Notes under the pieces: model-generated
What the model was told of the DNA's origin: nothing
The model's input: the letters and a program-made list of their open reading frames with translations, nothing else
The model's database searches: none
IMG/VR virus record: IMGVR_UViG_3300001525_000506
Span: 11,552 to 75,551 of that record
Direction: 5' to 3' (one strand)
Source: a virus
Taxonomy: Duplodnaviria; Caudoviricetes
DNA: 64,000 bases
In this document: positions 36,383 to 56,644 of the stretch, in pieces
Numbering within the stretch: position 1 is the first letter of the stretch
How the letters are laid out: each line of letters opens with the position of its first letter
Translations under genes and position numbers: made by a program

Positions 36383-36862
36383 TTACTTGGCTGTGCCGTT
36401 GTTGCTACTGTTGACGATGTTTGTTCCTGTTCCATTCGCAGTTCCACTCCTTACTACTGTTATTTTCGATATTTTGTCTGTAAGCGCTTTCAATTCGTCC
36501 TGTAATGCCTCAAATTCGCCTCTCGGCACATATCCCGACAAATCCACTTGCGGTTGCGCTTGTTGCGTCGTATCGCTGTTACACTCGGTTATTTCATAGG
36601 CTTTGACTTCGAATTGTCCATTCGCGTCAACTTTCTTTTGATACAATATCGATTTCTCGTTATCTAAGAATATAAATTCACTATTAGGCGGGAGCGGACG
36701 CATACGAACATCCTCGATACCGCTTACGAACGTTTTATTCGTGTTCACTTGCGACGGGACAGGTTGTTGTTGCGGTGGCATCGAATACGGATTAAACGGA
36801 TATCCGAACGGTTGCGTCGCTGTCGGCATCGTGTTGAAACTGTAATTGGGATAATTAGCCAT
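36383..36862 (-). CDS. Cassette gene 2: Pro/Gln/Tyr-rich N-terminus plus small beta domain
   Basis: FVSGIEDV..LPPNSEFIFLDNEKSILYQKKVDANG..VDLSGYVPRGEF. Confidence 0.75.
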   Translation of the reverse strand: MANYPNYSFNTMPTATQPFGYPFNPYSMPPQQQPVPSQVNTNKTFVSGIEDVRMRPLPPNSEFIFLDNEKSILYQKKVDANGQFEVKAYEITECNSDTTQQAQPQVDLSGYVPRGEFEALQDELKALTDKISKITVVRSGTANGTGTNIVNSSNNGTAK

Positions 36863-37075: not shown

Positions 37076-37098
37076 AAAAACCGTCAGAAATGACGGTT
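37076..37098 (-). terminator. Terminator of ncRNA operon
   Basis: aaccgtca-tttc-tgacggtt followed by T-tract. Confidence 0.7.
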
Positions 37099-37239
37099 AA
37101 TCTCGGTTACTATGATATAGAGGAGTTAGTTGCGCCTTTATGCTCGCCTACGGTTGCGACCCTTATCTCTCCTATGCAACATTACGGAGTGATTAGTTCC
37201 ATATAGGACTAATCAAATATAAACGGGCACAAAGGCTTG

Positions 37240-37320
37240 TGGTGGAGCTGACGAGAATCGAACTCGTTTCTTACGCAGTGCGCTTTGGCTTTATGCGCAA
37301 TCGAAACCATTCTCAACCCC
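37240..37320 (-). ncRNA. Mini-tmRNA: tRNA-like domain only (81 nt)
   Basis: GGGGTTG/CAGCTCC acceptor with G3:U70, 13-nt stemless D region AGAATGGTTTCGA, 7-bp helix, GAA, T-arm ACGAG-TTCGATT-CTCGT, encoded ACCA. Confidence 0.88.
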
Positions 37321-37327
37321 ATATTCC

Positions 37328-37397
37328 GCGCGACTTTTTACATCCACACGGAACTCAAATAGGGAGGAATAAAACGTTCCGTATCGCGCTTGTGGAT
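37328..37397 (-). ncRNA. Compact RNA pseudoknot with nested hairpin
   Basis: ATCCACA/TGTGGAT crosses GCGCGAT/GTCGCGC; nested ACGGAAC/GTTCCGT. Confidence 0.55.
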
Positions 37398-37406
37398 ATT
37401 GTGGGG

Positions 37407-37490
37407 TTGTAGACGACGTCGGATTTGCACCCAACAATTCAGGTTATTAGAGGAGAACGTTACCTGCGTGTTTCGTTACACTAATCGTCC
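37407..37490 (-). ncRNA. Atypical tRNA-like RNA with 17-nt anticodon-position loop
   Basis: Acceptor GGACGAT/GTCGTCT, D stem GTGT/ACAC, stem CAGGT/ACCTG, T-loop TGCAAAT with bulged T stem; no encoded CCA. Confidence 0.65.
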
Positions 37491-37507: not shown

Positions 37508-37545
37508 ATAATATCACTTCATATATGGCTGTGTCAAGAGGGGTT
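37508..37545 (-). promoter_or_regulatory. Promoter of ncRNA operon
   Basis: AACCCCTC-TTGACA-18-TATTAT with extended TG. Confidence 0.7.
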
Positions 37546-37979
37546 ATCAATATATTTTTGCAATTTCTTTTTATAACGCCACCTGTCTTGCTTTATCGTT
37601 TGCGCGTCAACAAAATATCGTTTCGCAATATCTTCGTCTTGTTCCGTTCCGCGTATGATATCCCACACGTATTCGATACGGTTATGGCGCACTTTGCTTT
37701 CAAGACAAATCGATATGAATTCGTCCTTGGTGCAAGAATAAATCGATATCTTCGGCGTTTGAGCCTCTTTTAGCGCGTTTCTGACATCGACATAGTCTTG
37801 AATCTTGTACAAAATAAAGCACAAAATCAATTCTACGACCACACCCGATAATATGCTGTTATATGCTTGTCGAATAAGAACGCGAACGCAAATATCATCA
37901 AGAATATAAAGGCATATAATCCGTACTTGTACGCTAAGAATTTTATGCGCAATCTTTTAGGTAATAAATTATTTTGCAT
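37534..37979 (-). pseudogene. Split membrane-anchored HTH regulator (N part 37833-37979; C part 37534-~37860 in another frame)
   Basis: TM N-part MQNNLL..FAFLFDK stops; other frame continues SILSGVVVELILCFILYKIQDY..QDEDIAKRYFVDAQTIKQDRWRYKKKL (HTH). Confidence 0.5.
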
Positions 37980-55217: not shown

Positions 55218-55396
55218 TCGTAATCCTCCCAGCGATTATTGCGCCAAATGGGGTCGCTCAACGCATAAGAATACTCGTTAGCAGGGTCCCACAATTTCTC
55301 GTAGAACTCAGTGCCTTCCTTGTCATATTGTTTTGCCCATTCTTTTTGCTCGTCCGTACATTTAGTGAACGGCGTTTCGTCTTCTATTTTAATCAT
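55211..55396 (-). CDS. Small acidic protein (candidate immunity/antitoxin)
   Basis: 61 aa, coupled downstream of kinase. Confidence 0.5.
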   Translation of the reverse strand: MIKIEDETPFTKCTDEQKEWAKQYDKEGTEFYEKLWDPANEYSYALSDPIWRNNRWEDYEW

Positions 55397-56385
55397 AGAA
55401 CCTCCTTTGGTTTCCCTATTGTCTTCAAATGCTTTGGCTTTTGTCCATACGGCACATCGTTGCTATAAATCAACATACCGCCTATGTCTTTATTCCTCGC
55501 CAACGCATTTATCGTTTTTACAATGCCGTAATCAGAACGATATACGACCTCGCGAGGCACATATCGCGCTTGTCCGTTGCCCTTCTTCAAATTGCCTTGA
55601 AAACGCAAATCGTTTCTTCTTTCAGCCTCTTGCGCGGGCAAATCGTTATACACAACATCGATTGTATATCCGTATTCTTTTAGTCTGTTCACGACTTTTT
55701 CTATGCTACTCGGAGAACCACCGACTTTGCCGATAAGAACATTCGCACCGTCCTCCAATGCCTGTCTTTGCATATTATCCGCAAGAATACCCGCCTCTTT
55801 CTGCGTCTTCCCAGACATTGTCGGGTCGGCTTGGAATTCGGGTATGTATCTCGTCTTGAAAATGTCCGAATCGATTTCGTACGCGCCGTTGCTCTCTAAT
55901 ATCGGATTTGAAAGCGAACTCTTTCCGCTCCCAGGCAATCCCAACATCAAAACCGCGTGGCGTCCGTGTTGTATCTTTCGTGACGACTGCTGTTTCGCGA
56001 TTTCGTCGTCAACCCACTTTTTTCGAAGTGACTCACGCTCTTCGCTGTTGTCATAAATCGTAGGTTTTCTGCCGTCGTTCGCTCTGGCTATAAAATCTTC
56101 ACCATAGACTTCTTTGTCTTTTTCAAGTAGTCTATTGAAGAAATCTTTTCTCTCGTTATCCGACATTCCAACAAGACGCGTTATTTTTCGTCCTCCTCGT
56201 TGCCTATATTCTTCTTCTAAAAGGTCTTCGAGTTTGAATATTTTATGAGGCTCCCCGAAAAGCCTATTTGCTTGCTCTTCGGGGTTATCATAATACGTAT
56301 TCGGTTCGCCGTCGCTTATATATCGTCCAGTCTCGGGATTATAATCTTCCATCCCGTGACCGCCGTTTCCCATTTTCTGTGCCAT
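55393..56385 (-). CDS. Zeta-toxin-like P-loop kinase with N-terminal extension
   Basis: LMLGLPGSGKS, EIDSDIFK, GANVLI, GYTIDVVY..AERRN..R, RYVP; start MAQK at 56385. Confidence 0.8.
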   Translation of the reverse strand: MAQKMGNGGHGMEDYNPETGRYISDGEPNTYYDNPEEQANRLFGEPHKIFKLEDLLEEEYRQRGGRKITRLVGMSDNERKDFFNRLLEKDKEVYGEDFIARANDGRKPTIYDNSEERESLRKKWVDDEIAKQQSSRKIQHGRHAVLMLGLPGSGKSSLSNPILESNGAYEIDSDIFKTRYIPEFQADPTMSGKTQKEAGILADNMQRQALEDGANVLIGKVGGSPSSIEKVVNRLKEYGYTIDVVYNDLPAQEAERRNDLRFQGNLKKGNGQARYVPREVVYRSDYGIVKTINALARNKDIGGMLIYSNDVPYGQKPKHLKTIGKPKEVL

Positions 56386-56416
56386 GTCTTTTTCGCTCCG
56401 TATTATACCAAATAGG

Positions 56417-56644
56417 TTATTCCGCGTCAATAGGGTTTCTGAAATATTTTTGGACAATACCCAAAATCCTATCTTTCAAAGACATTATATGGTTGAACGT
56501 CTTATTTGTCAACTGCTGTGTACCTTCAAGAAACCCCGTAACGTTATCCGAGATTTCCAAATCGGGGTCAGTATCAGCAATTACGCCGAGAGCCTCTTTT
56601 GCCTCATATTCGCTTATGCCAAGCATTCGTGCAATTTCTTCCAT
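56417..56644 (-). CDS. Small acidic protein (candidate immunity)
   Basis: 75 aa directly after ART-like gene. Confidence 0.5.
   Translation of the reverse strand: MEEIARMLGISEYEAKEALGVIADTDPDLEISDNVTGFLEGTQQLTNKTFNHIMSLKDRILGIVQKYFRNPIDAE

What the first reader, a model, noticed from the sequence alone, without database searches (positions are those of the whole stretch)
37240..37320. Phage mini-tmRNA: intact tRNA-like domain with the whole mRNA domain removed
The 81-nt sequence is GGGGTTG-AGAATGGTTTCGA-TTGCGCA-[16 nt]-TGCGTAA-GAA-ACGAG-TTCGATT-CTCGT-CAGCTCC-ACCA. It keeps the established tmRNA TLD hallmarks: G3:U70 alanine identity, a 13-nt stemless D region with GG-N-TTCGA (SmpB-binding region), a 3-nt linker, a T-arm and encoded CCA. 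The 3' end CAGCTCCACCA equals that of E. coli tmRNA. The ~270-nt pseudoknot and tag-ORF region is replaced by a 16-nt loop. Inference: an alanylated SmpB/EF-Tu-binding decoy that blocks trans-translation, or that releases stalled ribosomes without degradation tagging. Either could help against tRNA-cleaving or ribosome-stalling defences. Reduced ssrA derivatives may have been reported before, so novelty should be checked.
Basis: partly seen in the sequence, partly recalled or inferred. Interest (0 to 1): 0.88.

Follow-up and report, generated by a model that had tools for sequence, protein, structure and literature searches.

The report
Phage tag-less mini-tmRNA gene
This uncultured 75-kb phage carries a real 81-base gene for only the alanine-accepting, tRNA-like end of the bacterial ribosome-rescue RNA (tmRNA); the type is already known from mycobacteriophage DS6A, is common but unannotated in phages, and probably interferes with the host's ribosome rescue.

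Summary
Window 37320..37240 (minus strand) matches Rfam tmRNA (RF00023) end to end at 56.9 bits (cut-off 47, E 1e-19). About 308 model positions (mRNA-like domain and pseudoknots) are replaced by a short capped helix. ARAGORN misses it.

It is a conserved gene, not a relic. A sister phage (terminase 92% identical) keeps it at 76/81 identity. Four of the five changes lie in helices and preserve pairing, while the flanks align at only 32-40%. A strict pattern found 32 viral contigs (21 distinct sequences). Across 27 sequences, 94.9% of the proposed pairs form, with strong compensatory change.

The phage encodes no integrase, SmpB, Pth or ArfB. In both phages a near-consensus promoter and a terminator bracket a small non-coding unit.

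The type is not new. Mycobacteriophage DS6A's 'TLD only' tmRNA (Hudson 2014; Mao 2009) has the same architecture and matches my model at 58 bits. That molecule is reported to inhibit E. coli tmRNA.

The most likely mechanism is competition for SmpB, blocking trans-translation. This is inferred, not tested; expression could not be checked.

This scan has already noted the same kind on other DNA (over 100 notes in at least 85 genomes).

Verdict: a new member of a known kind, of moderate interest.

The parts
37240..37320 (-). Mini-tmRNA gene (81 nt): a tRNA-like domain of tmRNA with no mRNA-like domain and no pseudoknots
   Evidence: RF00023 56.9 bits, E 1.2e-19, model 1-374. Own model R1 78.8 bits. 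76/81 identical in the sister phage, against 32-40% in the flanks.
37314..37320 (-). Acceptor stem, 5' strand (GGGGUUG), with G3 of the G3:U70 alanine identity pair
   Evidence: Pairs with 37244-37250. G3:U70 is found in 27/27 aligned family members, though the scan pattern forced it in most of them.
37301..37313 (-). Stemless D region AGAAUGGUUUCGA (the GG.UUCGA motif of tmRNA TLDs)
   Evidence: Aligned to the RF00023 consensus at posterior 9-*. The GAGAAN signature is shared with a subgroup of mini-tmRNAs.
37294..37300 (-). Helix P2, 5' strand (UUGCGCA)
   Evidence: All 7 pairs show changes on both sides across the family. One compensatory G-C to A-U change relative to the sister phage.
37278..37293 (-). 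16-nt cap replacing the mRNA-like domain: purine-rich UAAA, a small GC/GC hairpin with a CAAA loop, then GCAC
   Evidence: 23 long-class members place a small hairpin here. Summed MFE is -46.2 against -17.5 +/- 5.3 in shuffles, with 0/300 shuffles as low. No conserved reading frame with a stop.
37271..37277 (-). Helix P2, 3' strand (UGCGUAA)
37251..37267 (-). T arm ACGAG-UUCGAUU-CUCGU, preceded by the GAA linker at 37268-37270
   Evidence: 100% of cells pair, and 4 of 5 pairs show changes on both sides. The inner 15 nt (CGAGUUCGAUUCUCG) match the DS6A TLD exactly; the outermost pair is A-U here and G-C in DS6A.
37240..37250 (-). Acceptor stem, 3' strand CAGCUCC, plus discriminator A and encoded CCA
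   Evidence: Identical to the last 11 nt of E. coli ssrA.
37508..37537 (-). Promoter-like site TTGACA-18-TATTAT with TG (11/12), about 180 nt upstream of the mini-tmRNA
   Evidence: The sister phage has TTGACA-17-TATTAT with TG about 300 nt upstream of its copy. This is a consensus match only; the number of sites in the region is not above shuffle expectation.
37079..37098 (-). Intrinsic-terminator-like hairpin plus T run, closing the non-coding unit
   Evidence: The sister phage has an 11-bp hairpin plus T run at the equivalent place.
37410..37490 (-). Context: a probably co-transcribed tRNA-shaped RNA with a 17-nt 'anticodon' loop. It is not part of the mini-tmRNA.
   Evidence: RF00005 28 bits (cut-off 29), E 0.0014. 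Cloverleaf. Not found in the sister phage or elsewhere in IMG/VR.

Best explanation
This is an expressed phage gene for a TLD-only ('CDS-less') tmRNA of the same class as the mycobacteriophage DS6A molecule. It is probably transcribed from its own promoter within a roughly 420-nt non-coding unit and processed like a tRNA. It folds into an acceptor stem with G3:U70/A73/CCA, a stemless D region, a T arm, and a 7-bp P2 helix capped by a small loop-hairpin. It offers everything the host needs for alanylation and for SmpB and EF-Tu binding, but it has no resume codon or tag frame. The most likely effect is competition with host tmRNA for SmpB, and possibly for stalled ribosomes, so that host trans-translation and ssrA tagging are blocked during infection. 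Shown here: identity, structure, conservation, family membership, absence of a coding part, and absence of integrase, SmpB, Pth and ArfB genes. Inferred: expression, processing, charging, SmpB binding, and the inhibitory effect and its benefit to the phage. My confidence in the identity is about 0.95. The 0.6 given here is for identity and mechanism together.
For: RF00023 match over the whole model at 56.9 bits, E 1e-19. 32 viral contigs (21 distinct sequences, 62-86 nt) carry the same design. All eight that I scanned score 56-73 bits on RF00023. Covariation over 27 sequences: 94.9% of cells paired against 69% in shuffles and about 50% in slid controls; 137 cells changed on both sides against 41.8 in shuffles; 0/500 shuffles reach the observed value. 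Sister phage (terminase 92% aa, neighbouring gene 78% aa): RNA 93.8% identical, with 4 of 5 differences in helices and all keeping the pair, and flanks at 40% and 32%. The promoter/terminator bracket is conserved in both phages. In other phages the gene sits inside tRNA arrays, in one case 1 nt from tRNA-Ile, which suggests tRNA-type processing. The DS6A TLD at JN698994 28478-28560 has the same architecture and scores 58.3 bits on a model built without it. [quoted passage not shown] 2009). MAGs that carry mini-tmRNAs also carry a full-length ssrA, so the mini form is an addition, not a replacement.
Against: The promoter and terminator are consensus matches only. Charging and SmpB binding are untested. 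The original experiment (Mao 2009) could not be read and was done in E. coli with another sequence. This copy has U:A instead of the usual C:G at the base of P2, and GAA instead of GAC in the linker, so its affinity for SmpB is unknown. If simple SmpB titration needs no charging (as PMC4131195 reports), the strict retention of G3:U70 and CCA is unexplained and points towards a role on the ribosome. Blocking ribosome rescue could also harm phage translation. The host is not known.
Confidence: 0.6

Rival explanations
1. Tag-less ribosome rescue. The RNA is alanylated, enters stalled ribosomes with SmpB and EF-Tu, and accepts the nascent chain. The peptidyl-RNA is then released and hydrolysed by host factors. 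Ribosomes are freed without marking proteins for ClpXP-type proteolysis, which benefits a phage whose own or host mRNAs are being cut.
For: All elements needed for charging and EF-Tu binding are kept. G3:U70 is present in 27/27 members, including the few not selected by a pattern that forces it (DS6A, L041, second copies in L045/L064). CDS-less tmRNAs kept in jakobid mitochondria and some plastids are thought to help with incomplete mRNAs (PMC11915505).
Against: The phage encodes no peptidyl-tRNA hydrolase or RF-1/ArfB-domain protein that could complete such a cycle. The published test of a similar molecule showed inhibition, with or without chargeability (PMC4131195). No mechanism is known for resuming or terminating translation without a tag frame.
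Confidence: 0.2
2. A decoy or ligand for another TLD-binding factor rather than for SmpB on the ribosome. Candidates are tRNA/tmRNA-cleaving defence nucleases, RNase R, and defence systems with SmpB-like domains such as CoCoNuT.
For: CoCoNuT type II/III-A systems carry SmpB-like OB folds predicted to bind tmRNA (PMC11090510). A phage anti-CRISPR complex uses t(m)RNA fragments (PMC11662646). The long class keeps a conserved purine-rich loop plus mini-hairpin that a plain SmpB sponge would not obviously need. The 5' signature GAGAAN was found only in mini forms, never in a full-length tmRNA, among representative genomes of 185,579 species.
Against: There is no direct evidence. No conserved protein neighbour accompanies the gene across lineages. 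Short members of the family lack the inner hairpin.
Confidence: 0.08
3. A non-functional relic: a remnant of an ssrA-targeting attP site, or a decaying copy of a captured full-length tmRNA.
For: Prophages often carry the 3' part of ssrA. Some phages carry full-length tmRNAs, for example PegLeg gp91 at 403 nt.
Against: Both the 5' and 3' halves of the TLD are present and pair. There is no tyrosine or serine recombinase. The gene is 93.8% conserved with pair-preserving changes while the flanks are randomised. Covariation is seen across the family.
Confidence: 0.04
4. A degenerate tRNA-Ala, or another tRNA-like RNA with a non-translational role such as a Y-RNA-like module or a primer.
For: It shares the acceptor and T arm with tRNAs and lies beside another tRNA-shaped RNA.
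Against: There is no D stem and no anticodon arm. ARAGORN calls nothing. Within the tRNA clan the tmRNA model wins clearly. No Y-RNA or other family matches at E up to 10.
Confidence: 0.03

Closest known systems
'TLD only' (CDS-less) tmRNA of Mycobacterium phage DS6A (tmRNA Website tmID 11587 / Phage__Mycobacterium.9; Mao et al. 2009 RNA Biol 6:355; Hudson, Lau & Williams 2014, PMC4131195; PMC11915505)
   Same: It is phage-encoded and of similar size (83 against 81 nt). The layout is the same: acceptor stem with G3:U70, stemless D region, P2 of 6-7 bp, purine-rich loop, small hairpin, P2', linker, T arm. The inner 15 nt of the T arm (CGAGUUCGAUUCUCG) are identical. There is no tag frame. It matches my family model at 58.3 bits.
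   Different: DS6A is an actinophage and is temperate according to the literature. Its copy ends ACUA (no encoded CCA), has GGUGGUCGA instead of GGUUUCGA, and falls just below the Rfam cut-off (43.2 against 47 bits). The present copy has an encoded CCA, a U:A pair at the base of P2, and sits in its own promoter-terminator unit in a phage without an integrase.
Full-length bacterial tmRNA (ssrA, RF00023), e.g. E. coli K-12
   Same: The tRNA-like domain is the same. The last 11 nt are identical to E. coli ssrA, and it has the same D-region motif and alanine identity elements.
   Different: It lacks helices beyond P2a/b, all four pseudoknots, the resume codon and the tag reading frame. About 308 model positions are missing.
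Full-length phage tmRNAs (cluster M and C1 mycobacteriophages, phage G, Melnitz)
   Same: They are phage-borne ssrA-type genes that often sit beside tRNA genes (PegLeg gp91).
   Different: Those are 350-400 nt, have tag frames, and are thought to supplement trans-translation. The present RNA cannot encode a tag.
CDS-less organellar tmRNAs (jakobid mitochondria, Jacob et al. 2004; ~65-bp plastid forms in Mallomonadaceae, PMC11915505)
   Same: Reduction to the tRNA-like domain with no tag frame.
   Different: Those are the organelle's only tmRNA and co-occur with a targeted SmpB. Here the RNA is an extra copy brought in by a virus, alongside the host's own complete ssrA.
Synthetic TLD fragments used for SmpB-TLD crystal structures and ribosome complexes (Gutmann 2003; Bessho 2007; Neubauer 2012 - from my own knowledge and the reference lists in PMC11090510 and PMC4131195)
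   Same: The same design: a TLD with P2 closed by a loop. Such fragments bind SmpB and EF-Tu and enter the A site.
   Different: Those are laboratory constructs. This one is a natural, conserved gene.

Membership tests
tmRNA (Rfam RF00023), tRNA-like domain | Score at or above the curated gathering threshold over both ends of the model | tested here: met
   56.9 bits against 47, model 1-374, E 1.2e-19.
tmRNA (Rfam RF00023), tRNA-like domain | 7-bp acceptor stem with G3:U70, discriminator A73 and a 3' CCA | tested here: met
   GGGGUUG/CAGCUCC + ACCA. Family-wide pairing is 96.3%.
tmRNA (Rfam RF00023), tRNA-like domain | Stemless D region with GG.UUCGA, and a T arm of 5 bp with a 7-nt loop | tested here: met
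   AGAAUGGUUUCGA and ACGAG-UUCGAUU-CUCGU. The T stem pairs in 100% of cells, and 4 of 5 pairs covary.
tmRNA (Rfam RF00023), tRNA-like domain | Helix P2 in place of the anticodon arm | tested here: met
   7 bp. All 7 pairs show changes on both sides across 27 sequences.
Complete (tagging-competent) tmRNA | mRNA-like domain with a resume codon, a tag reading frame and a stop codon | tested here: not met
   Only 16 nt lie between the P2 strands. The one short frame ending in UAA lies inside the P2 helix and is lost in the sister phage.
Complete (tagging-competent) tmRNA | Pseudoknots PK1-PK4 | tested here: not met
   308 model positions are absent.
TLD-only / CDS-less tmRNA (DS6A type) | An RNA of 60-90 nt consisting of the TLD with P2 closed by a short cap, encoded by a phage | tested here: met
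   81 nt in a 75.5-kb virus record with terminase and primase-helicase genes. Aligned with DS6A. DS6A is recovered by model R1 at 58.3 bits.
TLD-only / CDS-less tmRNA (DS6A type) | Inhibits host tmRNA function when expressed | not testable with these tools
   Reported for the DS6A-type molecule in E. coli (PMC4131195, PMC11915505).
tmRNA partners | Alanylation by AlaRS; binding of SmpB and EF-Tu | not testable with these tools
   The sequence determinants are present. The complex predictor takes proteins only. The phage itself encodes no SmpB.
Canonical tRNA-Ala | Cloverleaf with a D stem and an anticodon arm | tested here: not met
   ARAGORN finds no tRNA. The tRNA model is out-scored by the tmRNA model within the clan.
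ssrA attP fragment of an integrative element | Only the 3' part of ssrA, next to an integrase gene | tested here: not met
   Both halves are present. No PF00589 or PF00239 match in the complete phage record.
Two-piece (permuted) tmRNA (RF04321) | Permuted order of the acceptor and coding pieces; score above the cut-off | tested here: not met
   16.6 bits against 47, E 0.42, covering only the T arm and downstream sequence. The gene order here is the standard one.

The most novel reading that the evidence does not exclude
Phage mini-tmRNAs are an old lineage specific to mobile elements, not repeated recent truncations of host ssrA. Their GAGAAN D-region signature was found in no full-length tmRNA among representative genomes of 185,579 species. 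The long class shares a conserved purine-rich loop plus mini-hairpin from actinophage DS6A to gut Clostridia phages. In this reading the RNA is charged and acts on the ribosome, or on a defence factor with an SmpB-like domain, as a dedicated counter-defence or tag-less rescue device. Here it would be the conserved core of a swappable non-coding RNA operon, not a simple SmpB sponge.
Probability: 0.15. Interest if true: 0.65.

Novelty: new member of a known kind. Interest (0 to 1): 0.35.

Why it matters
Trans-translation is the main ribosome-rescue and protein quality-control pathway in bacteria, and it is a drug target. A natural, widespread, 80-nt phage RNA that is expected to shut it down would be a compact genetic tool. 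It would also suggest that phages routinely manipulate ribosome rescue.

Standard annotation misses these genes. ARAGORN called none of the seven copies in the sequences I scanned with it, and the DS6A GenBank record carries no feature at the site. Phage RNA gene content is therefore systematically under-reported.

For this particular window the value is mainly confirmatory. It adds a well-conserved example with an encoded CCA, its own transcription unit, and a sister genome that shows purifying selection on the RNA.

Tried and rejected
- **ARAGORN.** No call in the window or for the mini-tmRNA in six related loci.
- **BLAST against GenBank phages.** blastn of the region and of the 81 nt gave no full-length match. 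Only the 3' halves of tRNAs and of cluster M full-length tmRNAs matched.
- **Mao et al. 2009 and Jacob et al. 2004.** Neither is held in the library. Their content is cited only through PMC4131195 and PMC11915505.
- **blastn against E. coli genomes.** No match. The 3'-end identity was checked by reading ssrA directly.
- **Host mimicry.**
  - The P2 base (GAUUGCG...CGUAAGA) resembles the tmRNA of two Christensenella MAGs. The T loop of the upstream tRNA-like RNA (GGGUGCAAAUCC) resembles the same tmRNA.
  - However, the MAG with the closest terminase (G195, 80%) and G053 have different TLDs. BLAST of the tRNA-like RNA against these genomes found nothing significant.
  - I therefore rejected this as evidence. 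The host assignment to Christensenellales rests only on a binned contig and is weak.
- **Trans-acting tag frame.** The downstream trailer holds a 15-codon frame that starts GCA and ends UAG UAA. It is not conserved in the sister phage, whose downstream region is unrelated, so I rejected it.
- **Permuted tmRNA.** The match is insignificant.
- **HDV-like or other ribozyme in the spacer.** No Rfam family matched at E up to 10.
- **Conserved protein partner.** All-against-all comparison of ORFs within 3 kb of 27 mini-tmRNA loci found no family shared across lineages. The only shared 'ORF' was the artefactual one lying over the RNA itself.
- **Phage-encoded partners.** No SmpB, RF-1/ArfB or Pth.
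- **Other copies of the tRNA-like RNA.** None in IMG/VR.

Full report
**1. Is it there?**

A gathering-threshold scan of the whole window against Rfam 15 returns a single hit, tmRNA (RF00023), at these exact coordinates. It scores 56.9 bits (cut-off 47) with E 1.2e-19 and aligns model positions 1-374, with 308 internal positions replaced by 14 nt. ARAGORN finds no tRNA or tmRNA anywhere in the window. The last 11 nt equal the 3' end of E. coli K-12 ssrA.

**2. Context**

- The window is bases 11552-75551 of a 75.5-kb IMG/VR virus record that CheckV rates as complete.
- It encodes a large terminase, an NrS-1-type primase-polymerase/D5 helicase, an SNF2/ResIII helicase, a C5 methylase and tail proteins.
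- Nearly all genes lie on the minus strand, as does the RNA.
- The RNA lies in a 670-nt gap between minus-strand ORFs 37534..37842 and 36383..36862.
- A near-consensus promoter-like site (TTGACA-18-TATTAT with TG) lies at 37537..37508. A terminator-like hairpin with a T run lies at 37098..37079. Together they define a putative non-coding transcript of about 420 nt, whose fold z-score is -4.7.
- Inside it, upstream of the mini-tmRNA, is a tRNA-shaped RNA (37490..37410; RF00005 28 bits against a cut-off of 29) with a 17-nt loop where the anticodon loop should be.
- The complete phage record has no tyrosine integrase, serine recombinase, SmpB, RF-1/ArfB-domain protein or peptidyl-tRNA hydrolase.

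**3. Is it a conserved gene?**

A strict pattern for a TLD closed by 20-50 nt found 32 IMG/VR contigs with 21 distinct sequences of 62-86 nt. The eight I scanned all exceed the RF00023 cut-off, at 56-73 bits.

I built a covariance model (R1) from these sequences and aligned 27 strong matches. On that alignment:

| Measure | Observed | Control |
|---|---|---|
| Cells forming a standard pair | 94.9% | 69% in column shuffles; 45-58% with partners slid by 1-3 columns |
| Cells changed on both sides | 137 | 41.8 in shuffles (0/500 reach the observed value) |

All 7 P2 pairs and 4 of 5 T-stem pairs show compensatory change. There are two caveats. The alignment is fitted to the model. The pattern fixed G1-G4, the D-region motif, the T-loop and TCCACCA, so invariance at those positions is not independent evidence.

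The clearest evidence is a sister phage (G001, 78 kb):

- Its terminase is 92% identical, and the gene downstream of the RNA is 78% identical.
- Its mini-tmRNA is 76/81 identical.
- Of the five differences, one pair is a compensatory G-C to A-U change in P2. One turns G-U into G-C in P2. One turns U-G into U-A in the acceptor stem. One lies in the small hairpin loop.
- The 258 and 297 aligned columns on either side are only 40% and 32% identical.
- It has the same bracket: TTGACA-17-TATTAT with TG about 300 nt upstream, and a hairpin plus T run downstream.
- The accessory RNAs differ. It has no tRNA-like RNA upstream and a normal tRNA-Thr(UGU) downstream.

So the mini-tmRNA is the conserved core of a unit whose other parts are replaceable. 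In other phages the gene lies within tRNA arrays, in L008 one nucleotide from tRNA-Ile. That fits tRNA-type processing. No protein family recurs next to it across lineages.

**4. Anatomy beyond the TLD**

The long members (about 78-86 nt) share a design inside P2:

- a purine-rich stretch of 4-5 nt (UAAA in 8 of 23, 80% purine);
- a hairpin of 2-4 bp whose sequence varies while its pairing is kept (GCC/GGC, ACC/GGU, GCGC/GCGC, CCC/GGG, CGG/CCG and others);
- 1-3 unpaired nucleotides.

The summed folding energy of these inner segments is -46.2 kcal/mol, against -17.5 +/- 5.3 for shuffles (0/300 as low). In this window the hairpin is only G-C/C-G with a CAAA loop. Short members (62-71 nt) cap P2 directly.

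No reading frame with a stop is conserved. The only UAA-terminated frame here lies within the 3' strand of P2 and disappears in the sister phage.

**5. Comparison with what is known**

Hudson, Lau and Williams (2014, PMC4131195) list 'Mycobacterium phage DS6A (TLD only)'. [quoted passage not shown] The 2025 tmRNA database paper (PMC11915505) repeats that the DS6A form inhibits endogenous tmRNA in E. coli. It adds CDS-less plastid forms of about 65 bp and the jakobid mitochondrial forms.

I located the DS6A element at JN698994 28478-28560 (RF00023 43.2 bits). The GenBank record has no feature there. It aligns with the present RNA and shares the inner 15 nt of the T arm, the P2, the purine-rich loop and the mini-hairpin. 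A model built without it recovers it at 58.3 bits. The present RNA is therefore a member of a published kind.

Full-text searches found no paper that describes the breadth of this family in phages. This scan, however, has already recorded it many times on other DNA: 104 notes in at least 85 genomes, with follow-ups reaching the same conclusion.

**6. Origin and host**

- A scan of one representative genome for each of 185,579 species with the 5' signature GGGGNUGAGAANGGUUUCGA gave 42 hits. Those that are RNA genes are all mini forms: two Christensenella MAGs, Lentisphaeria/Victivallales MAGs, and a cyanobacterial MAG. None is a full-length tmRNA, and the rest are chance matches in coding sequence.
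- The MAGs that carry mini forms also carry a normal ssrA of 352-390 nt.
- Within the order that contains those Christensenella MAGs, 5 of 151 genomes have a match.
- One complete genome (G053) has four 81-nt copies. Their acceptor stem equals that of its own tmRNA, and two of them lie about 1.1 kb upstream of terminase-like genes.
- A contig binned in another genome of that order (G195) encodes a terminase 80% identical to this phage's. This hints weakly at a Christensenellales host. G195's tmRNA TLD differs from the phage RNA, so host mimicry is not shown.

**7. Mechanism**

From established knowledge of trans-translation:

- AlaRS needs G3:U70.
- SmpB binds the D/T elbow and the top of P2.
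- EF-Tu binds the acceptor/T stack.
- The complex enters the empty A site of a ribosome stalled on a non-stop mRNA.

The RNA keeps all of these elements but lacks the resume codon. It can therefore compete at every early step and cannot complete tagging.

The best-supported reading is competitive inhibition of host trans-translation through SmpB sequestration, as reported for the DS6A-type molecule. The strict retention of alanine identity and CCA leaves room for action on the ribosome, either as a dead-end block or as tag-less rescue. No phage-encoded hydrolase supports the rescue variant. A decoy role towards other TLD-binding factors is speculative; examples are the SmpB-like domains of CoCoNuT systems (PMC11090510) and t(m)RNA-fragment-based anti-CRISPR (PMC11662646). 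The relic/attP reading is disfavoured by the evidence in section 3 and by the absence of recombinases.

**8. Verdict**

This is a real, conserved phage gene for a TLD-only tmRNA, and a new member of a known kind. The identity is secure. Expression, charging, SmpB binding and the benefit to the phage are inferred. Interest is moderate. The single instance is ordinary. The family is widespread, unannotated and easy to test experimentally, but both the literature (one case) and this scan (many cases) already have it.

Noticed in passing
window 37410-37490 (-): A tRNA-shaped RNA just downstream of the promoter. It has a 7-bp acceptor stem (G1:U72, A3:U70), a D arm, a 5-bp 'anticodon' stem closing a 17-nt pyrimidine-rich loop (AACGUUCUCCUCUAAUA), an irregular T arm with a UGCAAAU loop, and no CCA. 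It scores 28 bits on RF00005 (cut-off 29). It is absent from the sister phage and not found elsewhere in IMG/VR, so covariation cannot be tested.
   Followed up: partly
window 37321-37409 and 37099-37239 (-): The spacer and the 3' trailer of the putative non-coding transcript fold strongly (whole unit z = -4.7). They match no Rfam family at E up to 10, including HDV-like ribozymes. Both regions are unrelated in the sister phage.
   Followed up: partly
L101, L105, L106, L107 (genome G053, order of the Christensenella MAGs): One complete 3.0-Mb bacterial chromosome carries four 81-nt mini-tmRNA copies (three identical). Their acceptor stem (GGGGAUG/CAUCUCC) equals that of the host's own tmRNA. 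Two copies are 24.9 kb apart, each about 1.1 kb upstream of a terminase-like gene, which suggests tandem prophages or satellites.
   Followed up: partly
L045, L046, L064 (Victivallales/Lentisphaeria MAG contigs): Two or more mini-tmRNA copies per contig, 0.7-3.5 kb apart. Their T loops are unusual (GGGAUCGAUACCC, GGGAUUGAUACCC) and their inner motif (AAAGCCGAAGCGCAC) is nearly the same as in this window.
   Followed up: no
L035, L066, L048 (archaeal MAG contigs): The 20-nt 5' signature also hits Bathyarchaeia and Nanohaloarchaea contigs. No T arm or acceptor 3' end follows, so these look like chance matches rather than RNA genes.
   Followed up: partly
JN698994 28478-28560 (L078 1501-1583): The published DS6A TLD-only tmRNA has no feature in the GenBank record, and it scores just below the Rfam gathering threshold (43.2 against 47 bits). 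Both standard routes to annotation miss it.
   Followed up: yes
window 55393-56457 (-): A 354-aa protein with a Zeta-toxin/AAA_33 kinase domain (PF06414, E 8e-19) in the phage late region.
   Followed up: no
window 37239-37412 (+): A spurious 57-aa ORF lies antisense over the mini-tmRNA. Equivalent 'ORFs' over the RNA in other loci cluster together in BLASTP. Gene callers could mis-annotate this RNA as a conserved hypothetical protein.
   Followed up: yes
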